A stretch of DNA of 64,000 bases from the human T2T-CHM13v2.0 reference genome, Homo sapiens (GCF_009914755.1 NC_060941.1); one strand, 5' to 3'. Numbered from the stretch's first letter, positions 25,771 to 42,900 are shown. The notes: generated by a model from the letters alone, not told the origin. Numbers and translations: made by a program.

Positions 25771-27410
25771 TCATCCGGCAACAGTCTTCCCTAAAACCAT
25801 TCCTAAAACGAAACAAAGCTACTTCAGACCAACAGCGTTGAACAAGGGAAAAGAACAGATAAAACACAGTGCCATGTGCATGTAGCAATATACTAGAAGT
25901 AGCCAATAGTAACCTCATACTGAGAGTGACTGCTTAATGACAGGTAAATGATAGTTTCTTCCATTTATAAAAGCAACCACACTTTGGAAGTTCCCAATTT
26001 CAAAAACAAAAAAAAATAGGGGAACACTTACTATTTTAATAATAATCTCTTGAGCCCTTTCCATTCCAAATTTCAAATCTCAAAGGTCTCCAGCAAGGCG
26101 TTATTCCCAAAACAGAGCTTTGCCATGGTAAACTAGCATGTTCCAGCAGGGTGGTTTTTGGACAAGCAGTCTACATTAACAAGTCTTAATACTAGTCAGA
26201 AAGCAGTATGCTTCACTCTGTCAGGTGGCCCGAAGGCATATAACTCTCAATGACTCTAAGTAAACCTGTAGCATCAGAATTCCTCGATTCAAGCCAGGAT
26301 CTGCCATTTGGAGAGCTGAATGATTTCTCTCAATCTTCATTTCCCCCAATCTTTCCCCCACCCTATACATATGTACACAAGATAATAGATATGAAAGCAC
26401 TCGGTAAGCTATCAAGGGCTACACCCTTATCATTGCCTTGCCCTATTCTGAAGGCCTCATTATAGACTTTACTATCCCTGCCACTCACGTACTGATCACG
26501 TATAGTATTGTCTCATACTGTTATTTACCTATTTCACATGTACATGTCTCATCTTCCCAGCCAGACAAGGCGACTTGAGGGGAAGGGCCTTGTCTTGCTC
26601 TTCTATTTCCCATTACAAAGTGCTCTGAGCATAGTACACAATTTAGCATTTGTTGAGTTAAGCTGATTTTCTGTGAACTGACTAGTTTTAAATCTCTGGG
26701 GAATTTGTTCTCTCAAAAAATCCTACAGTAAATCAATTGGGAAATTCAAGGTTTTTTTAAAAAAAACCCTAATTTAAGCTTTTGAATAAATCCAAAATTT
26801 GCAGACTAGATTTGCTTAAAGACAGATACTTCTTGGGAACATAAAGACAGCTGTCTAAGAGTCCTTATTTCTAAGGCTGTAGCACACATGAAAAAAGCAG
26901 ATGGGAGGAGGCACATGAGCAAGGCAATCCCAACTGGCTTGACGTTGGCACAGGTGGGTGGCTGGAGTTGCAGAATGAAGGCTGCAGAAATGGGGCCCGG
27001 AGATCTGCCACTTTTAAATGGTCAGTACTTCCCTCCTGGCTGCTTCTAGGTGCCAAGGGCCAAATAGTCCATTCTCCACTAGAAAAAAACTAGGTGATCC
27101 CCACAGTTCCAGCATGCCTCAAGTGATGCTACACACACACATACACACACACGCACAAAGTCCAGGGACACCCACCCCTAAACTGTCCCCCTGTACAAAG
27201 TTCTGGGACTCTCCTTGCAATCTGGCCCTTTCCCACTGCTCCAGGAAACGTCCCAATTTGTCCCTCTACATACCCTGGGGCATCTCCACGAAAACCCTCT
27301 CTCCCCCATGCTGAGATGCCCTTACAGCCAGTGCCTTCATCCGCAACCCATGACAAACCTACCCCGAACCTGTTCCCTCCCACACAGCCCCAACTTCTTC
27401 CCTACACACA

Positions 27411-30400
27411 CTACTGGAACGCCCCCCTCAATCTAGCCTCCCCCACATAACTCTCTCCCAAATTGCTCCCTCTCACTCTGACTGCAGACACTCCTCCAGC
27501 CAGCCTCCTCCCACTTGGCTGTAGGTGGTCTCTGAAATGGCCAAGGCCTATTTCCTCCCTTGAAACTGAGGGTACCCCCACAGCTGTTCTTGTCCCTGAC
27601 ATGCCTAGAGCATTCTCATAGGCTGTTTCTTCCCCCAAAGACCTTGGACAGCTCCATAACCTGGCCCCAGGCACACAGGTGTGAGATGTCCCCACAGCCT
27701 GGCTGCCCCCGGCCAGTCCCAAAATATTCCCACCTCCTGTCTCATCCTCTGAAGCCCCCACTCCCCCTGTGGACTGTCTCCTCAGCACGGTCAGACCTGA
27801 GACACCCACGTCCGCTTCTGCTCCTGAGGACCCAGTCACCCACACCGCAGCAGGCGCACGCCCTGCCATGGGAGCTCCTACAGCTGCAAGCACCCCCAGA
27901 GGCAGAGGCACCCTCCCGGCCTCGGGAATGGCTCCACCGTGTCTCCTTCTCCACAGGCCTGAGACACCTTCAGAGCCTGTCTCCCCCTCCACAGGTCCAG
28001 GAACCCTGGCAGCTGTGGGCCCCTCAGTGGCCAGTCTCCTTCCCCATATGCCTGAGCCGTCATCCCCAGAGCCCGTATCCCCTACCATTGGCCCTGGAAG
28101 CCCGGGAGCTGTGGGCACTCCCACGGCCATGGAACCTCTAGCAGCCACAGGCCTCCCAGCAGTCTGCCTTCTTCCAGACAGGCCAGAGACATGCTCAAAG
28201 ATGGTCCCCTCCCCCACAGACCCCAGCAGCCCCACAGCCATGGACACTCCTGTAGTCTGTCTGCCTCCCAACAAACCTGAGACACCCCCAGAGCCAGTCT
28301 TCTCCGCCATGGGCCCAGGCATCCTGGTCGAGGTGGGCACCTCCATCCTTGTGGGACCCTTGGCATCTGCAGGTCCGCCCACTGTCTCTCTTTCACCCCA
28401 CAATTCTGAGCCAGTTTCCTCTTGCACAGGCCTAGGCACCCTGGGAGCCACGGGCACCCCACTAGCTGCAGACAGCCCCACAGTGCCAGGCATTCCTGCA
28501 GTTTGCTGCCTCCCTGACAAGCCTGAAAAGCCTCCATCACCAGGCTCCAGCTCCACAGAACCAGGCACCCTAGGAGCCAGAAGGACTTCGGTGGCCACAG
28601 GAGCCCTGACCCTCTGTCTCTGTCCCCAGGGTCTTGGGATACCCCCAGAGTCAGTCTCCCCCCCAAGCCCAGGCCCCTCAGGCACCACAGGAACCCCAAT
28701 AGTCTGTCTCCTCCCCCATGGGCCCGGGAAGGCCCCAGAACCACAATCCTCCCCGCCAGACCACAGCTTCTCCCGAGCCACGTGTCCCCCTGAAGCCACG
28801 GATTCCTCCCCGCCTGACCACAGCTCCTCCTGAGCCACGGGTCCCCCTGAAGCCACGGATTCCTCCCCGCCAGACCACAGCTCCTCCCGAGCCACGGGTC
28901 CCCCCGAAGCCACAGATATTCTGGCAGCCCGAGTCCTTTCCCACAGGTTCAAAATGTCTCTAGAGCTGCCTTCCTGACACACAGGACCAGACGCCCACAC
29001 AGCAGCAGGCACTCTGGCAGGCACCTTTCCAGAGCCGGGCACACCCATTGCCATGAGGACCCCTGCTGCGGCACACCCCTGCCGGGGCACATCTGCTGCC
29101 CTGGGTATGCCCACCGTCTCAGACACCCCCACAGCCTGCCTCCTCCCACACTGACATGCAACATCTCCACAGCCAGCCTCCTGATCCACTGACCCAGGGA
29201 CCCCTAAAGCTGGAGGCCCCAGACTCTCTGGCTCCCCCACAGCCTGCCTCCTTTCCCACGGGCTCAGAACATTCCCACTACAGGTCTCCTCTCCAAGCCC
29301 AGGCACTGCCTCGGCTGGGGGCCCCCCAAGAGCTTGCTGTCCGTCCCACAGGCCCAGGCCCCCGCTGTGGCTCAGCTCTTCTCCCAGGGCTCCAGGTACC
29401 ACCACAGCCTGGGGCACCCTTACCATCTGTCCCGCTCCCCACAGCCCTGGGACACTCACACAGCCCGTGTCCTTCCCCAAGGCCCTGGGTACCCCTGTAG
29501 CCTGTTGTATCCCCCACAGGCCTGGGGCACCCCCAGAACCTGCTGCCTGCTCCCCAGGACATGATGACTCTGCAGTCTGCGCAGCTCCCCGTGACCCTGG
29601 ATCACCCCCAGAGCCTGTCTCCACCCACACAGGCTGTCCCCTTTCCCTGAACCCTGGGTCACCTCCACATCTAGTTTCCTCTTCAGCAGCACAGGGCACC
29701 CCAACAGAGTATCCTGTGCCCCACGGGCCGGGCATACCCACAGAGTCTGTCTCCTCCACAGCCTGTCTCCTGTAACACACACCTGCGGCACCCACAGAAG
29801 TAGGCTCCTCCTCCACAGCATCGGACACCCCCACAGCCTGTCCCCTCCCCCATACGCCAGGGGTGGCCCCACAGACTGCTTCATGTGTCAGAGCCCCAGG
29901 AATCTGCGGGGACTGTCCTCTCCCCCACAGACCTGCAGCACCGCCACAGCCGAGCTCTCCCTCCATGGCTCTGGGCGCTCCCACAGCCCCAGTCCACCCC
30001 ACGGTCCCAGGCTCGCCCATAGTCTGTTCTTTTTCACAAGGGCCTGAGACAAACCCATAGCCTATCTCCTCCCCAGTCTCAGGAACCCCCACAGCTTCTC
30101 CCCTCCACAGGTGCGGGGCCATTTCAGAACTTGACGCCAAAGCCCCAGGCACACTCGCAGGAGGCACCCTCCCAGCCTGTCCCTGTCCACAGAAGCCTAA
30201 GGCTCTCTCGTAAGCTGCCCCTAAGCCCAGAGCTGTGGGCCCTGAGGGGGCCCGAGGGATCCCCCTTGCCTGTTCCTTCACCCAGGGCCCTGTAAGACCG
30301 CCGCGGCTTGTCTCTACCCAGGAAGCTCGGCCAGGAACACCCCTTTCGACAGGTCCCTCTCCTGCAGGCACGGGATGGAGCTCGACTCTACTTCCTTCCC

Positions 30401-30947
30401 CACATCCCGAGGCGGCCCTCATAGCCTGCACCTTCAGCCACAGGTGCAGAATGCTCTCATGGCCCAGAGATCCCGGGCGACCTTTTCTCTCGCAGCCCCG
30501 GGGACTTCTATCTTCGGTCTCCTCCTCCCCAGACCCGGTCACCCACACAGCCCCGGCAAGCCCCACCACCTCGGGCTCCCCCACAGCCCCGTTCACCCAC
30601 ACAGCCCCAGGGTCCCTTGCAGCCTCGATGGAGCCTGGGGTCCCAGGAGCTCCCAAAGCCTCATTCGCCCCGGCGGCGTCGGCTGTCTCCGCCGCTTGTC
30701 TCGTCCCCCATGGCCGCTGACGGCCCTGTGGCCTTTCTGCACTCACACAGCGCGTCTCCCACTCCGAGGGCTTCGCCCGGCGCCTTGCTCCACGGCCTCG
30801 GGACGTCCCTGCGCCCCGTCTCTTCCCCCACGGCCGCCGAACCCCCCGCCCCGACCTGCTGGGCCCCACGCAGCGACCCGGCATCTTAGCCGCCTGCTCT
30901 CCCCGGCGCAGCCTGGGCAAGGCCCCACGGCGAGTCTCCCGGCTCAT
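27411..30947 (-). CDS. Intronless uncharacterised 1178-aa Gly/Ala/Val/Pro/Glu-rich repeat protein nested in KIAA0753 intron 1
   Basis: 3537-nt open frame, ATG with purine at -3 (GCTATGA), recurrent peptide motif G-L-W-G-x-x-Q-x-V-G-V-P...E-E-T-G; no transposon sequence recognised. Confidence 0.7.
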   Translation of the reverse strand: MSRETRRGALPRLRRGEQAAKMPGRCVGPSRSGRGVRRPWGKRRGAGTSRGRGARRRAKPSEWETRCVSAERPQGRQRPWGTRQAAETADAAGANEALGAPGTPGSIEAARDPGAVWVNGAVGEPEVVGLAGAVWVTGSGEEETEDRSPRGCERKGRPGSLGHESILHLWLKVQAMRAASGCGEGSRVELHPVPAGEGPVERGVPGRASWVETSRGGLTGPWVKEQARGIPRAPSGPTALGLGAAYERALGFCGQGQAGRVPPASVPGALASSSEMAPHLWRGEAVGVPETGEEIGYGFVSGPCEKEQTMGEPGTVGWTGAVGAPRAMEGELGCGGAAGLWGRGQSPQIPGALTHEAVCGATPGVWGRGQAVGVSDAVEEEPTSVGAAGVCYRRQAVEETDSVGMPGPWGTGYSVGVPCAAEEETRCGGDPGFRERGQPVWVETGSGGDPGSRGAAQTAESSCPGEQAAGSGGAPGLWGIQQATGVPRALGKDTGCVSVPGLWGAGQMVRVPQAVVVPGALGEELSHSGGLGLWDGQQALGGPPAEAVPGLGEETCSGNVLSPWERRQAVGEPESLGPPALGVPGSVDQEAGCGDVACQCGRRQAVGVSETVGIPRAADVPRQGCAAAGVLMAMGVPGSGKVPARVPAAVWASGPVCQEGSSRDILNLWERTRAARISVASGGPVAREELWSGGEESVASGGPVAQEELWSGGEESVASGGHVAREKLWSGGEDCGSGAFPGPWGRRQTIGVPVVPEGPGLGGETDSGGIPRPWGQRQRVRAPVATEVLLAPRVPGSVELEPGDGGFSGLSGRQQTAGMPGTVGLSAASGVPVAPRVPRPVQEETGSELWGERETVGGPADAKGPTRMEVPTSTRMPGPMAEKTGSGGVSGLLGGRQTTGVSMAVGLLGSVGEGTIFEHVSGLSGRRQTAGRPVAARGSMAVGVPTAPGLPGPMVGDTGSGDDGSGIWGRRLATEGPTAARVPGPVEGETGSEGVSGLWRRRHGGAIPEAGRVPLPLGVLAAVGAPMAGRAPAAVWVTGSSGAEADVGVSGLTVLRRQSTGGVGASEDETGGGNILGLAGGSQAVGTSHTCVPGARLWSCPRSLGEETAYENALGMSGTRTAVGVPSVSREEIGLGHFRDHLQPSGRRLAGGVSAVRVRGSNLGESYVGEARLRGAFQ
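28744..28915. repeat. 57-bp in-frame tandem repeat x3 (SVASGGPVAREELWSGGEE)
   Basis: Three near-identical units gattcctccccgcc(a/t)gaccacagct...gaagccac with period 57. Confidence 0.92.
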
Positions 30948-31267
30948 AGCTCCAGGGCAGTTCCCTTCCTCCCTACCGCGGCCCTGGGGGATGTCTTAGC
31001 ACCTCGCTCCCTAAGCTGCTCCACACACGCACTCACACACTCCGCTCCGGCCTTGCAGCCTTTCTCCCTCCGAGCCCCTCACCCATCCCACCCCCGCCCA
31101 GTCTCGGGAACCCGCCCCCAGTCCCAGGCCCCCGTAAAGCCTAGACGGCAGAAAAGGTAACTGGGGGGACAAAGCAACAAAGGCTTTCCGAGTCAGATCT
31201 CCTCTCCCCCAAGTCCATGACTCTATGCGGCTTCCCAGAATCCCCCCCAGCCCCGGCCCGAGCCCAC

Positions 31268-31345
31268 CTGGCCTAGGGTGAGGCGCGGCTACTGGGAGGC
31301 GGGCAACGGGGGCCCCCAACAAGGCCGCGCTTCCGGCCGCCTGCC
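31268..31345 (-). other. KIAA0753: Probable non-coding exon 1 of KIAA0753 (5' end approximate)
   Basis: CCAG|GTGGGC donor at 31267-31266 inside the CpG island, just downstream of ETS and X-box motifs. Confidence 0.65.
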
Positions 31346-31347
31346 CA

Positions 31348-31361
31348 GTCGCCATAGCAAC
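31348..31361. promoter_or_regulatory. RFX X-box GTCGCCATAGCAAC
   Basis: 12/14 match to the GTTGCCATGGCAAC palindrome next to the start of a ciliary gene. Confidence 0.75.
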
Positions 31362-31713
31362 AGGCGCAGGGCGGCTTGGGAGCCTTTGAGGCCCTGAACT
31401 ATTTAAGGATCCAGGTGTTGCAAGGCGGTAAGTTTTGCAGCCAGTGTCCATGAGGTCGGGGCTGGGACTAGATTAGGGTAGATCTAAGCCTGGGCTTGGG
31501 AGTGCAGCTAGCGCAGAAAGATCTGAGGAACTAGAGCAAAAAGCCATGCGGATGGATTGTGGTCGTCAGAGGCTCCCGTAGTCTTTAGCGGCGCTGGCTT
31601 CCGCAGGCTCCGCCCTCTCTTGCCCACCCGGAAACAGCCTCGCCCCGCCTACGCGGGACCCAACCGCGGCGACCGGACGTGCACTCCTCCAGTAGCGGCT
31701 GCACGTCGTGCCA

Positions 31714-33650
31714 ATGGCCCGCTATGAGGAGGTGAGCGTGTCCGGCTTCGAGGAGTTCCACCGGGCCGTGGAACAGCACAATGGCAAGACCATTTTCGCC
31801 TACTTTACGGGTTCTAAGGACGCCGGGGGGAAAAGCTGGTGCCCCGACTGCGTGCAGGGTGAGGCCGGGATTCGGGGGCTGCTGTCCAATGGAAATGGCA
31901 GGAAGGTCGAGCCTACGGCCAGAAGGGGGGCTTAGCGGAGGCAGAGTCTTGGTTCCAGACATCCGCGGAGCAATCTGAGCTGTCCCCAAGTCTCCTTCTA
32001 TTAAATCCTACCCCGCCCTGCCAAGAGCGCTCTTCCTTTTACCACCTTACCCGGATGATCTTGGAATCTAGTTCCTTAAAACTTCTCACTCCCCCAGTAC
32101 CATTAGTGTCTTACAGGATACGTGAGTTGGTCAGCAAATACATGTGCTTTCCATTGTTACGGGCGCGGTGGTGCAGGGGCAAATCGGGACTGGGATTTGG
32201 TCCTTACCCTTAACGTGGCTCTAAGACCAGAAGGGAACACCTGACTTGTGTTGACCTCTTCAGTTAGCTGCAGGTTAAAGTCTGAGTGCTTACCAAGACT
32301 GGGGGAAGGGGGAAAGAACACAGTTTATACGTGCCTGATTGTAGAGTTGACGTGCGATTATTTTATCTCAACTTTTTTTAAAGCTGAACCAGTCGTACGA
32401 GAGGGGCTGAAGCACATTAGTGAAGGATGTGTGTTCATCTACTGCCAAGTAGGAGAAAAGCCTTAGTAAGTGGCAATGTATAATCTACCTCGCAGACGTG
32501 CACAAATTGCATACTTAGGCGGGAAGGGCCTCAGGGACTTACTTACCCAGTTTGTCTTACAAGGTAATGTCTGACAAGTTAAACAATTAGAAGCTATTAA
32601 ATACAAATTTAAAATGCCCACCTGAATTAAGTAAGGGTAATTCAACGAATTTGGTCTGGTGTAAGCCCAGAACTTAGCTGGCTTTACTTTTATATCTTAG
32701 TCACACTTTGAAACTTTGCACAGGGTAATTAGTAGATTAAGCCATAGTCCGCAAGGTTTTTTAAGTGTTTGCAAGAACAGTGATTACTAAAAAATTAAAT
32801 GTAGGACTATGTCAAATATTAAGCAAACTGTAATAAACCAAGTAAATTTTTTTCATGATCACTTTTTCTTTTCGAATAGTTGGAAAGATCCAAATAATGA
32901 CTTCAGAAAAAACTTGAAAGTAACAGCAGTGCCTACACTACTTAAGTATGGAACAGTAAGTATCTTTAAATATGCTGGGCCTGTAATTCACTGTCAGAAC
33001 TCTTTTAACTTGCTGTGGATCCAGATTTGAAAAGATCTTGACATTTCATCTCAATTCCATTGTTGTTCAGAGTGCTGCTGAAAGTCCATTCCTATGGCCA
33101 ATCCCAATAAACTGATAATGTAAATATCTAGCTATTAGGTCTTTTTCATGTTAAGTCACTCTTAAAAAACCAGAAAGTAGGTTGACTCATAATTCCTTAA
33201 AACATTTGCATCAACAGTTGTTTTCTGTTTAATTCATAATTCTGGTTAAAAAGTAAGGGCATCTCTTCTAGTTCAGTCATGCCCCTGGGATCCTAAATTA
33301 AAGAGTTGAGGGGAAGAAGAGGGCACTGGGCTTGCTGTCTCCTGTTTTAGTCTGTGGAGCTTCCTGGTATTTGGGGTTTAAGTCTCTTGAGCCAAGTATG
33401 TTAGTGATTCATCTTACAGCAAATATATTGATTCTTTCATAAAACTTGTTATAACTAGATGATAGTTTCTGAATTGCGTAATTTCTGTGTTCAAAGATGA
33501 GTGTCATTCAAGGCAGAACTCATTCCACTCCTAATAACGTTTTATAGAAGTAGTGAAGATTTGACTGTTTTTCTCTTACAGCCTCAAAAACTGGTAGAAT
33601 CTGAGTGTCTTCAGGCCAACCTGGTGGAAATGTTGTTCTCTGAAGATTAA
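31714..33650 (+). CDS. TXNDC17: Thioredoxin domain-containing protein 17 (TRP14), 123 aa, 4 exons
   Basis: Exons 31714-31858, 32384-32465, 32880-32955, 33582-33650 (145+82+76+69=372 nt), GT-AG introns, WCPDC active site, ends ...EMLFSED-TAA. Confidence 0.98.

Positions 33651-35097: not shown

Positions 35098-42900
<7,803 letters not shown>

What the first reader, a model, noticed from the sequence alone, without database searches (positions are those of the whole stretch)
27411..30947. Intronless 1178-codon Gly-rich repeat ORF hidden in KIAA0753 intron 1, on the same strand
Seen: a 3537-nt stop-free frame starting ~320 nt downstream of the inferred KIAA0753 exon-1 donor, with no recognisable transposon. 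It is built from roughly 20 or more degenerate modules of the form G-(L/V/P)-W-G-x-x-Q-(A/T)-V-G-V-P-x(n)-(L/V)-x-E-E-T-G, preceded by an Arg-rich N-terminus and one non-repetitive, helix-like island (HESILHLWLKVQAMRAASG). The repeats are heavily diverged at the DNA level yet the frame stays open and the Trp positions recur, which is hard to explain without selection on protein. Inference: an uncharacterised disordered/structural protein made from the KIAA0753/TXNDC17 RFX promoter when the exon-1 donor is not used, so it would be mutually exclusive with KIAA0753 mRNA, and possibly expressed in germ or ciliated cells. I recall an unnamed 'novel protein' model at about this place in GENCODE but cannot verify it; I know of no function.
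Basis: partly seen in the sequence, partly recalled or inferred. Interest (0 to 1): 0.85.

Follow-up and report, generated by a model that had tools for sequence, protein, structure and literature searches.

The report
Annotated orphan repeat-protein gene inside KIAA0753
The long open frame in the first intron of KIAA0753 is a real gene found only in placental mammals; it is already annotated and its protein has been detected, but nobody has studied what that protein does.

Summary
Window 27411-30947 (-) is an uninterrupted 1178-codon frame, equal to RefSeq LOC122526780. It has no internal stop, where composition predicts about 25.

It is a real coding gene:
- 62 near-full-length relatives were found; all 48 named ones are placental mammals, from all four superorders.
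- 52 of 63 aligned rows end at the human last residue.
- One paper's supplements list it as OpenProt IP_250569 / AC004706.3, with 12 tryptic peptides from HEK293T pull-downs. It is flagged as meeting the HPP PE1 rule.

Anatomy:
- an Arg-rich head (residues 1-109, net +17);
- a strongly conserved core (residues 110-230) with no Pfam, PDB or human paralogue match;
- 24-28 degenerate Trp/Arg/Gln modules that drift at close to the neutral rate;
- a conserved tail.

Humans carry two extra in-frame 57-bp units.

The gene is already known, so this is a rediscovery. Its function is unstudied. Interest is moderate to low.

The parts
27411..30947 (-). Whole coding frame of LOC122526780: 1178 codons plus the TAG stop at 27411-27413. 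Single exon.
   Evidence: hub annotation table
30621..30947 (-). Arg/Gly-rich N-terminal head, residues 1-109 (26 basic, 9 acidic, net +17). It lies in the CpG island. A second conserved ATG, Met22, is at 30882-30884.
   Evidence: (25 rows start at M1, 16 at M22)
30258..30620 (-). Conserved core, residues 110-230. All 17 invariant columns of the 63-row alignment lie at residues 169-222. The 30-residue windows 151-210 are 0.88-0.91 identical across rows.
   Evidence: no Pfam, PDB or paralogue match
27474..30308 (-). Array of 24-28 degenerate modules, residues 214-1158. The module core is about 24 residues, with Gly-Leu-Trp-Gly-Arg-Arg-Gln at its centre, and spacing is mostly 23-40 residues. Modules often end in acidic Glu-Glu-Thr-Gly-type linkers.
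28747..28919 (-). Three tandem 57-bp (19-codon) units, residues 677-733. The two extra units (residues 691-728) occur in none of the 62 other aligned mammals.
27414..27977 (-). C-terminal part, residues 991-1178. It is better conserved than the middle (windows 0.52-0.66) and the last residue is conserved.
   Evidence: (52 of 63 rows end at residue 1178)
31141..31218 (-). Upstream ATG in strong context with a 25-codon frame, out of frame with the main ORF. It lies in the stretch between the KIAA0753 exon-1 donor and the main ATG.
31033..31086 (-). Second upstream ATG in strong context with a 17-codon frame, also out of frame. GC boxes lie just upstream at 31117 and 31099.
31268..31342 (-). KIAA0753 exon 1, non-coding. 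Its donor is CAG|GTGGGC at 31268/31267.
   Evidence: hub table
31348..31361 (-). X-box-like palindrome 6 nt upstream of the KIAA0753 start.
26035..26040 (-). ATTAAA, the only canonical poly(A) hexamer between the stop and KIAA0753 exon 2. It lies 1370 nt after the stop and next to the end (26032) of an annotated alternative exon.
   Evidence: hub table
28277..28298 (-). Short annotated exon of other KIAA0753 transcripts, inside the ORF. It ends in a CAG|GTTTGT donor.
   Evidence: hub table

Best explanation
LOC122526780 (formerly AC004706.3; OpenProt IP_250569; mouse counterpart probably Gm43951) is a genuine single-exon protein-coding gene. It is nested, in sense orientation, in intron 1 of KIAA0753. 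In these searches it occurs as a single-copy gene in placental mammals only.

Shown here:
- the frame is open far beyond chance;
- its length, stop position and module architecture are kept across all four placental superorders;
- the protein is made in human cells.

Inferred working (about 0.25 confidence):
- The specific parts are the 120-residue core (110-230) and the C-terminal tail.
- Between them lies an array of roughly 25 Trp/Arg/Gln modules with acidic linkers. It is selected mainly for being there, meaning for its length, composition and open frame, rather than for its exact sequence.
- This fits a flexible multivalent spacer or 'sticker' array.
- The Arg/Gly-rich head would give affinity for nucleic acid or for ribosomal or nucleolar material, in line with co-purification with RPS2.
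- Any stop or frameshift would cut the core off from the tail. That would explain an intact frame alongside near-neutral residue change.
- Origin (inferred): amplification of a 25-35-codon unit before the placental radiation.
For: Frame: 0 internal stops against 25.0 expected (minimum 13 in 2000 shuffles). The longest simulated frame was 684 codons or fewer.

Orthologues:
- 62 hits of 720-1203 aa at 44-88% identity, plus 11 shorter hits, which look like fragments of the same gene. Every named one is a placental mammal.
- Afrotheria and Xenarthra were checked in the taxonomy.
- A profile search of 1.84 billion representatives gave only 30 hits. 24 aligned in register with the profile; the 8 new ones I read are recognisable stretches of the same protein.
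- The gene tree recovers the mammalian orders with one sequence per species.
- 52 of 63 rows end at human residue 1178, and 62 of 63 start with Met.
- 14 hits come from unnamed contigs of 3.6-8.7 kb that hold frames of 892-1163 aa.

Neutral simulations from the human ORF gave 7, 22, 29 and 34 in-frame stops at macaque-, lemur-, cow- and mouse-like divergence. 0 of 300 runs stayed open in each (the divergences are recalled values).

Rate contrast: core identity is 0.74-0.96 against 0.51-0.91 in the repeats. Mean site rate is 0.66 in the core against 1.05-1.08 elsewhere.

Translation (PMC10787177 supplements):
- 1178 aa, transcript ENST00000634965.
- 10 peptides with bait NEUROG3 (classifier score 1) and 4 with bait RPS2.
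- HPP PE1 flag 1; 11 other MS studies; 2 translation-evidence studies.
- 3 synthetic-peptide checks with correlations 0.95, 0.87 and 0.66.
- All 12 distinct peptides are exact products of an in-silico tryptic digest of the window's ORF.

Single copy: no paralogue of the whole protein, the core or the tail in the own genome.
Against: Sequence constraint outside the core is weak:
- Repeat identity (0.91 macaque, 0.56-0.63 cow, pig and bat, 0.52 hamster) is only a little above the simulated neutral values (0.87, 0.48, 0.40).
- The gamma shape is 3.4 and the tree length is 13.3.
- Trp sites outside the core are not slow under LG (0.97).
- Trp is replaced mostly by its one-step codon neighbours (77%).
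- Module cores are no more conserved than linkers.
So the 'motif array' idea has little support from conservation.

Other weaknesses:
- No codon-level test (dN/dS, PhyloCSF) could be run, because no mammalian DNA other than this genome is on hand.
- Most orthologues are automatic gene models. One is flagged low quality, and some lack an end.
- The RefSeq model is CDS-only, so the start and end of the mRNA are unknown.
- Two upstream ATGs precede the ORF if the KIAA0753 start is used.
- The peptides come from one over-expression pull-down resource in one cell line, and the paper's main text does not discuss this protein.
- The RPS2 edge has a low classifier score (0.086).
- The NEUROG3 bait also brought two other Gly/Ala/Pro-rich non-canonical proteins, which may reflect bait stickiness.
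- The folding state is unknown.
Confidence: 0.85

Rival explanations
1. The frame is open by chance or composition. It would be a G-rich, stop-poor tandem repeat that has simply not yet collected stops, and it has no protein function.
For: The coding strand is 42% G and poor in T and A. Other frames are also stop-poor, with 382 open codons in one + frame and antisense ATG frames of 321 and 261 aa. The sequence is built from repeats. Residue change in the repeats is close to neutral.
Against: 0 stops against 25 expected, and no simulation came near. Neutral drift would add about 7 stops even at macaque-like distance. Full-length frames with the same end exist in 4 placental superorders. There is a core at 0.88-0.91 identity. 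12 peptides are in print.
Confidence: 0.02
2. The frame is translated, but what selection keeps is not the protein. It could be a DNA or RNA property of this promoter-proximal, G-skewed stretch (R-loop or G-quadruplex formation, enhancer activity), or the act of translation on intron-retaining KIAA0753 transcripts.
For: GC skew of 0.25-0.35 towards G on the sense strand runs over 3.5 kb. There are 13 G-quadruplex motifs on the sense strand and 0 on the other. RefSeq enhancer features overlap the 3' half (hub table). Residue change in the repeats is near neutral.
Against: A DNA-level role needs no open frame, yet only one of six frames is open. The stop position and the core residues are conserved at the protein level. 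The ORF body is CpG-depleted like ordinary methylated gene body; only about 30501-32000 looks like a CpG island. No Rfam family matches.
Confidence: 0.06
3. The repeat region is a folded beta-rich repeat structure (solenoid- or propeller-like). The conserved Gly, Pro and Trp would be structural positions, and the region would not be a flexible array.
For: Mean hydropathy 0.464 lies on the folded side of the charge-hydropathy line, 0.415. Val is 9.5% and Gly and Pro recur at fixed module positions. The three thirds of the array match each other as profiles, at E-values of 1e-18 to 1e-25.
Against: Module spacing varies, mostly 23-40 residues. Module pairs are only 24% identical. Cross-species identity is about 0.52 with many insertions and deletions. 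There is no Pfam, PDB-sequence or Atlas match. No structure could be predicted, so this stays open.
Confidence: 0.15
4. It is an Argonaute-hook type protein, like GW182/TNRC6. The many Trp-Gly sites would dock Argonaute, or another protein with Trp pockets.
For: There are 30 Trp, 11 of them as Trp-Gly, spread along a Gly-rich protein. Trp has the highest raw conservation. The family comparison itself is recalled, not tested.
Against: The residue before Trp is Leu, Pro or Val in 26 of 30 cases, not the small or polar residue recalled for Ago hooks. There is only 1 Gly-Trp. Trp sites in the repeats evolve at an average rate. No Argonaute link appears in the one proteomic record.
Confidence: 0.05
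5. One reading: the mRNA starts at the shared KIAA0753/TXNDC17 promoter and arises when the exon-1 donor is not used, so each transcript makes either KIAA0753 or this protein.
For: Same strand, with the ATG 320 nt after the donor. One CpG island covers both. An X-box-like site lies at the KIAA0753 start. The only poly(A) hexamer lies 1370 nt after the stop.
Against: Two strong-context, out-of-frame upstream ATGs lie between the KIAA0753 start and the main ATG. GC boxes at 31117 and 31099 could serve a start site of the gene's own. Ensembl listed a separate single-exon transcript. No RNA data could be consulted.
Confidence: 0.35

Closest known systems
LOC122526780 / NM_001396008.1 (RefSeq), AC004706.3 / ENST00000634965 (Ensembl, once biotype TEC), OpenProt IP_250569
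   Same: It is the same object. The coordinates are identical to the RefSeq CDS (hub table). The length of 1178 aa is the same, and all 12 published peptides lie in the window's ORF.
   Different: Nothing differs. The records give no function, no domain and no untranslated regions. The anatomy (core, modules, human-only units), the placental range and the rate analysis are additions made here.
Predicted orthologues in other placentals, named by pipelines 'collagen alpha-1(I)/alpha-2(I) chain', 'mucin-19', 'Gm43951 protein' or 'RIKEN cDNA 4933427D14 gene'
   Same: They are collinear and full length at 44-88% identity, with the same core, the same end and 9-30 modules. The name 4933427D14Rik is the mouse KIAA0753/Mnr gene (passages of PMC8276316), which fits the same host locus.
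   Different: The collagen and mucin names are misnomers from composition. The longest Gly-X-Y run in the human protein is 5 triplets, and no Pfam family matches. The link between mouse Gm43951 and this gene rests only on a UniRef name for a hamster protein.
Placental-only single-exon genes derived from retrotransposons (RTL/SIRH and PNMA families; recalled)
   Same: Single exon, restricted to placental mammals, conserved open frame.
   Different: There is no Gag, protease or any other Pfam match at E-values up to 1, and no paralogue in the genome. The internal repeat architecture points to amplification in place, not to a captured element.
GW182/TNRC6-type Trp-Gly repeat proteins and other 'sticker and spacer' low-complexity proteins (recalled)
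   Same: Many Trp and Arg residues are spread through a Gly/Ser/Pro/Ala-rich chain. The sequence changes fast while composition and Trp count are kept: 19-36 Trp, median 28, across orthologues.
   Different: Hydrophobic residues precede Trp. Val content is high and net charge is low. There is no evidence of Argonaute binding or of condensates. Membership is not supported.
Elastin-like polypeptides (recalled)
   Same: Val-Pro-Gly and Gly-Val-Pro triplets recur, 10 each, in a Gly/Val/Pro/Ala-rich chain.
   Different: Only 2 matches to the Val-Pro-Gly-x-Gly pentapeptide, no tandem pentapeptide arrays, Lys at 1%, and no signal-peptide-like hydrophobic start.

Membership tests
Bona fide protein-coding gene | Frame open beyond what composition allows | tested here: met
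   0 stops against 25.0 expected. 0 of 2000 shuffles had one or fewer, and simulated frames reached at most 684 codons.
Bona fide protein-coding gene | Full-length open frame kept in distant species, with conserved ends | tested here: met
   62 relatives in 4 placental superorders. 52 of 63 rows end at residue 1178. Caveat: most are automatic models.
Bona fide protein-coding gene | Uneven constraint along the protein (a conserved domain) | tested here: met
   The core, residues 110-230, is 0.88-0.91 identical in its best windows and has a site rate of 0.66 against 1.05-1.08 elsewhere.
Bona fide protein-coding gene | Two or more unique, non-nested peptides of 9 or more residues (HPP PE1 rule, as named in the paper) | tested here: met
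   Table S3 of PMC10787177 flags PE1 = 1 for both baits. 12 distinct peptides, 11 of them 12-23 residues long, all appear in the in-silico digest of the window ORF. I did not re-examine the spectra.
Bona fide protein-coding gene | Codon-level signature (dN/dS below 1, PhyloCSF) | not testable with these tools
   No mammalian DNA other than this genome is on hand. There is only a rough comparison with simulated neutral identity.
Bona fide protein-coding gene | Defined mRNA with mapped start and poly(A) site | not testable with these tools
   The RefSeq model is CDS-only (hub table). Only sequence motifs were located.
Collagen (the name given to many orthologues) | Long uninterrupted Gly-X-Y triplet runs; Pfam Collagen repeat | tested here: not met
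   The longest run is 5 triplets. Pfam gives 0 families at E-values up to 1.
Elastin-like | Tandem Val-Pro-Gly-x-Gly pentapeptides and Lys/Ala cross-link segments | tested here: not met
   2 pentapeptide matches, not in tandem; Lys is 1.0%.
GW182/Ago-hook proteins | Trp flanked by Gly and small or polar residues (recalled definition) | tested here: inconclusive
   11 Trp-Gly but 1 Gly-Trp. Position -1 is Leu 13, Pro 7, Val 6 of 30.
GW182/Ago-hook proteins | Binds Argonaute | not testable with these tools
Retrotransposon-derived placental genes (RTL/PNMA) | Gag-like or protease domain | tested here: not met
   No Pfam match. The precomputed Pfam column is empty for all 62 relatives.

The most novel reading that the evidence does not exclude
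This is an orphan gene born in the placental ancestor, inside intron 1 of the ciliopathy gene KIAA0753, by amplification of a 25-35-codon G-rich unit. It has been held open for the whole placental radiation, while most of its residues drift at roughly two thirds of the neutral rate. Its only tightly constrained part, residues 110-230, is a protein domain with no known relative. The protein works as a multivalent Trp/Arg scaffold that rides with ribosomal protein S2 and the bHLH factor NEUROG3. Humans have lengthened it by two in-frame 19-residue units.
Probability: 0.3. Interest if true: 0.6.

Novelty: already known. Interest (0 to 1): 0.35.

Why it matters
This is one of the largest human proteins with no study of its own. 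In my searches the only papers that name it are expression lists and one proteogenomic supplement.

Practical consequences of its position:
- It sits on the same strand inside intron 1 of KIAA0753, a gene whose mouse knock-out is lethal (passages of PMC8276316). KIAA0753's link to Joubert and orofaciodigital syndromes is recalled and was not seen in any call.
- Variants filed as deep-intronic for KIAA0753 can be coding here.
- Deletions or guide RNAs near the KIAA0753 5' end may hit both genes.
- RNA-seq counts for this gene cannot be told apart from unspliced KIAA0753 pre-mRNA.

It is also a clear case of a frame kept intact while most of the sequence drifts almost freely, and a candidate for gene birth by repeat amplification.

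Tried and rejected
Tools that were not available:
No fold and no fold search were possible.
- Complex prediction (two copies of the core) was not available.

Searches that found nothing:
- Pfam: 0 families at E-values up to 1.
- PDB sequences with the 63-row profile: one chance-level hit, E = 0.69.
- ESM Atlas on the core and on residues 330-625: best scores 0.81 and 0.79, which is chance level.
- Rfam over 25800-31800: no match.
- Own genome: no paralogue of the whole protein (stricter first look), the core or the tail. The one extra hit had E = 0.575 and an internal stop.
- Module profile against the six-frame translation of the whole window: 30 of 30 hits lie inside the ORF.

Literature:
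- 'PhyloCSF' plus 'KIAA0753': 0 papers.
- The 2019 whole-genome PhyloCSF paper (PMC6886504) does not name KIAA0753, TXNDC17 or '1178' in the supplementary text that was searched; files 1 and 8 were not searched. Nor does it in the passages found. I could not confirm my guess that the model came from that screen.
- GENCODE 2021 (PMC7778937; passages) says nothing specific.

Readings rejected:
- Collagen, elastin-like and retroelement-derived (see the membership tests).
- Transmembrane or secreted: the highest 19-residue hydropathy is 1.36, and the start is Arg-rich.

Full report
**1.
- The minus strand of window 27411-30947 carries one ATG-to-stop frame of 1178 codons. It coincides base for base with the RefSeq coding part of LOC122526780 in the hub's table.
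- The frame has no internal stop. The two other frames of that strand have 27 and 31 stops, and the three + frames have 11, 20 and 28.
- Shuffling bases within each codon position gave a mean of 25.0 in-frame stops (minimum 13; 0 of 2000 shuffles with one or fewer). Markov simulations of orders 1, 2, 3 and 5 (1000 each) never gave an open frame above 684 codons.
- Codon position 1 is 50% G. The protein is 19.5% Gly, 11% Ala, 9.5% Val, 8.6% Arg, 8.4% Pro, 8.2% Glu and 2.5% Trp.

**2. The repeats are real and old.**
- A profile seeded on the 10 clearest Gly-x-Trp-Gly sites found 21 modules in its first round and 28 at convergence, 24 of them near full length. The same profile found a mean of 0.125 (maximum 2) in 200 shuffled copies of the protein.
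- The module core is about 24 residues, with Gly-Leu-Trp-Gly-Arg-Arg-Gln at its centre followed by a Gly-Val-Pro turn. Successive modules mostly lie 23-40 residues apart.
- Module pairs share 24% of residues. They share 48, 45 and 40% of bases at codon positions 1, 2 and 3, against 34, 27 and 29% expected from composition.
- The three thirds of the array match each other as profiles, with E-values of 1e-18 to 1e-25. The core does not clearly match them.
- In the whole 64-kb window, 30 of 30 module hits lie inside this ORF.
- A second, better conserved Trp motif (Ala-Val-Trp-Val-Thr-Gly type) recurs at residues 117, 135, 210, 441, 651 and 1036.

**3. Relatives.**
- A search of 5.8 billion proteins returned 62 relatives of 720-1203 residues at 44-88% identity. 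A search among shorter proteins returned 11 more, which look like fragments of the same gene.
- Of the 62, 48 carry a species name. All are placental mammals: primates, a colugo, rodents, lagomorphs, bats, artiodactyls and a porpoise, horse, carnivores, shrews and a mole, elephant and tenrecs, and an armadillo.
- I checked the tenrec (Afrotheria) and the armadillo (Xenarthra) in the taxonomy. The other assignments rest on my own knowledge.
- 14 of the 62 come from unnamed contigs of 3.6-8.7 kb that hold frames of 892-1163 residues. If those frames were called without splicing, which I assume but cannot check, they are intact in one piece.
- A profile of the 63-row alignment, run over 1.84 billion cluster representatives with no word filter, found only 30 proteins. 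24 had E-values of 1e-10 or better and aligned in register with the profile, and the 8 new ones I read are recognisable stretches of the same protein.
- No marsupial, monotreme or non-mammal appeared. This is absence from these libraries, not proof.
- The gene tree recovers the recognised orders with one sequence per species, as expected for a single-copy gene inherited vertically.
- The human genome holds no second copy of the whole protein, the core or the tail.
- Many relatives are named 'collagen alpha chain' by pipelines. That is a composition artefact: the longest Gly-X-Y run is 5 triplets and Pfam finds nothing.

**4. What is conserved.**
- In the 63-row alignment, 52 rows end at the human last residue and 62 start with Met. 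25 rows start at the human Met1 and 16 at Met22.
- All 17 invariant columns lie at residues 169-222. The 30-residue windows 151-180 and 181-210 are 0.88 and 0.91 identical across rows, against 0.37-0.66 in the repeat region (231-1178), leaving out the human-only insert.
- Against single species, the core is 0.96 (macaque), 0.82 (cow, elephant) and 0.74-0.80 (hamster, spiny mouse) identical. The repeat region is 0.91, 0.56-0.58 and 0.52.
- Module count (median 21, range 9-30) and Trp count (median 28, range 19-36) are kept across relatives.

**5. How strong is selection?**
- Starting from the human ORF, I simulated neutral change at divergences that I recall for macaque, lemur, cow or dog, and mouse (0.065, 0.25, 0.38 and 0.50 per site). 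The simulations used substitutions only. They produced 7, 22, 29 and 34 in-frame stops on average, and 0 of 300 runs stayed open at any distance. The open frame is therefore under purifying selection.
- The same simulations gave neutral residue identities of 0.87, 0.61, 0.48 and 0.40. The repeat region lies only modestly above these.
- The fitted gamma shape is 3.4 and the tree length is 13.3 changes per site over 63 tips.
- The core has a mean site rate of 0.66 (median 0.49), against 1.05-1.08 elsewhere.

Three results count against motif-level constraint in the repeats:
- Trp sites outside the core have an average LG-normalised rate of 0.97.
- Lost Trp residues are replaced in 77% of 309 cases by one-step codon neighbours: Arg 32%, Leu 15%, Cys 14%, Ser 9% and Gly 6%.
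- Module cores are no better conserved than linkers, 0.522 against 0.523.

A mild signal remains. Where a module carries the consensus Arg-Gln, those residues are 0.75-0.76 conserved, against a background of 0.52.

My reading is strong selection on the core and on keeping the frame open, and weak selection on the exact repeat sequence.

**6. Evidence that the protein is made.**
- One paper holds 'AC004706': PMC10787177, 'Newfound Coding Potential of Transcripts Unveils Missing Members of Human Protein Communities'. I read passages of the main text and parts of supplementary files 2, 3, 4 and 6, not the whole paper.
- It re-analyses BioPlex 2.0 affinity-purification data from HEK293T cells.
- Table S1 lists IP_250569: 1178 aa, gene AC004706.3, biotype TEC, transcript ENST00000634965, no InterPro entry, 11 other MS studies and 2 translation-evidence studies.
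- Table S3 lists it as prey of two baits.

| Bait | Replicates | Unique peptides | Coverage | PE1 flag | PepQuery-validated | Z score | Classifier score |
|---|---|---|---|---|---|---|---|
| NEUROG3 | 2 | 10 | 0.155 | 1 | 7 | 48.6 | 1 |
| RPS2 | 2 | 4 | 0.057 | 1 | 4 | 20.8 | 0.086 |

- Table S2 gives three synthetic-peptide comparisons, with correlations 0.95, 0.87 and 0.66.
- The 12 distinct peptides equal the predicted tryptic products at residues 188-202, 233-248, 261-282, 437-453, 664-671, 782-793, 794-813, 814-836, 837-853, 982-1000, 1103-1120 and 1160-1172 (matched by eye). They span the core, the repeats and the tail.
- The main text does not discuss this protein. 'NEUROG3' and 'RPS2' occur 0 times there.
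- The NEUROG3 bait also brought non-canonical proteins from BEND4 and ZNF703, so that bait may simply collect Gly/Ala/Pro-rich material.
- Other mentions are gene lists only. LOC122526780 is among the top down-regulated genes in human blood after controlled schistosome infection (PMC12748245; passage). Gm43951 appears in three mouse RNA-seq lists (PMC10746429, PMC9222422 and a bioRxiv preprint; passages).
- Such counts cannot be separated from unspliced KIAA0753 pre-mRNA, because the gene lies in that intron on the same strand.
- The link between Gm43951 and this gene rests on one UniRef name.
- No paper holds the transcript, RefSeq or OpenProt identifiers apart from the one above.

**7. Surroundings.**
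- KIAA0753 exon 1 ends at a CAG|GT donor at 31268/31267, and the ORF's ATG follows 320 nt later.
- Between them lie two ATGs in strong context (31218, 25 codons; 31086, 17 codons), both out of frame, and two GC boxes (31117, 31099).
- The main ATG has G at -3 and A at +4. Met22 has A at -3.
- CpG observed/expected is 0.54-0.83 only over about 30501-32000. The ORF body (27501-30000) is 61-66% G+C but has CpG observed/expected of 0.17-0.33. Only the 5' end of the gene lies in the promoter island.
- The one canonical poly(A) hexamer before KIAA0753 exon 2 is ATTAAA at 26040-26035, 1370 nt after the stop.
- An X-box-like palindrome lies at 31348-31361.
The upstream ATGs speak for a start site of the gene's own, or for poor translation of read-through transcripts.

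**8. A human-lineage change.**
- Residues 677-733 are three 57-bp units, 92% alike.
- All 62 other mammals in the alignment, including macaque and owl monkey, have one unit.
- No ape sequence was among the hits, so I cannot say whether the gain is human-only or shared with apes.

**9. How it may work.**
- Shown: a conserved core, a conserved tail, a basic head (net +17) and an almost neutral, slightly acidic repeat body (net -22) with no membrane-type segment.
- Inferred: the core and tail do the specific work. The repeat array is a long, tolerant connector or multivalent array, in which Trp and Arg could act as weak contact points. The basic head gives affinity for RNA-rich or ribosomal material, in line with the low-scoring RPS2 co-purification.
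- I put about 0.25 on this working model and about 0.93 on the gene being a real, selected coding gene.
- Whether the repeats fold is open. The charge-hydropathy point lies on the folded side, and no structure prediction could be run.

**10. Verdict.**
- The finding is correct as an observation, but it rediscovers an annotated gene for which peptide evidence is in print. Novelty: already known.
- Interest is moderate to low for the scan. It is higher for anyone working on KIAA0753 or on uncharacterised human proteins.

Noticed in passing
window 31348-31361 (-) and 42132-42145 (-): An X-box-like palindrome sits 6 nt upstream of the KIAA0753 start. A two-mismatch copy sits at the MED31/C17orf100 divergent promoter. 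2 matches were found against 0.13 expected, and 2 of 100 shuffles reached 2. The RFX consensus is recalled, not tested.
   Followed up: partly
window 28277-28298 (-): A 22-nt exon of other KIAA0753 transcripts lies inside the ORF and ends in a CAG|GTTTGT donor. Some transcripts therefore start in, or pass through, the coding region and then splice on to KIAA0753 exons.
   Followed up: partly
window 27868-28833 (+) and 30375-31160 (+): There are antisense ATG frames of 321 and 261 aa, both Pro-rich. They are most likely a by-product of the stop-poor, C-rich antisense strand. They were not examined in other species.
   Followed up: no
window 27130-27157: A short (AC)n microsatellite lies about 250 nt downstream of the stop codon.
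   Followed up: no
window 27000-31250: GC skew of 0.25-0.47 towards G on the sense strand is sustained for over 4 kb. There are 13 G-quadruplex motifs on the sense strand against 0 on the other. The mRNA and the non-template DNA strand would be rich in G-quadruplex potential.
   Followed up: partly
one search hit list: No human or ape protein was listed. The best hit was a macaque protein at 88%, although the Atlas holds the human sequence letter for letter. Ape state of the 57-bp units therefore could not be checked.
   Followed up: no
PMC10787177, supplementary Table S3: The NEUROG3 bait brought down three non-canonical proteins, from AC004706.3, BEND4 and ZNF703, all with Gly/Ala/Pro-rich peptides. 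This could reflect a property of that bait or sample rather than specific binding.
   Followed up: partly
PMC8276316 (passages): The mouse Mnr (4933427D14Rik = KIAA0753) knock-out allele removes 10 exons and is lethal by embryonic day 9.5. Whether that deletion also removes the nested gene was not stated in the passages read.
   Followed up: no
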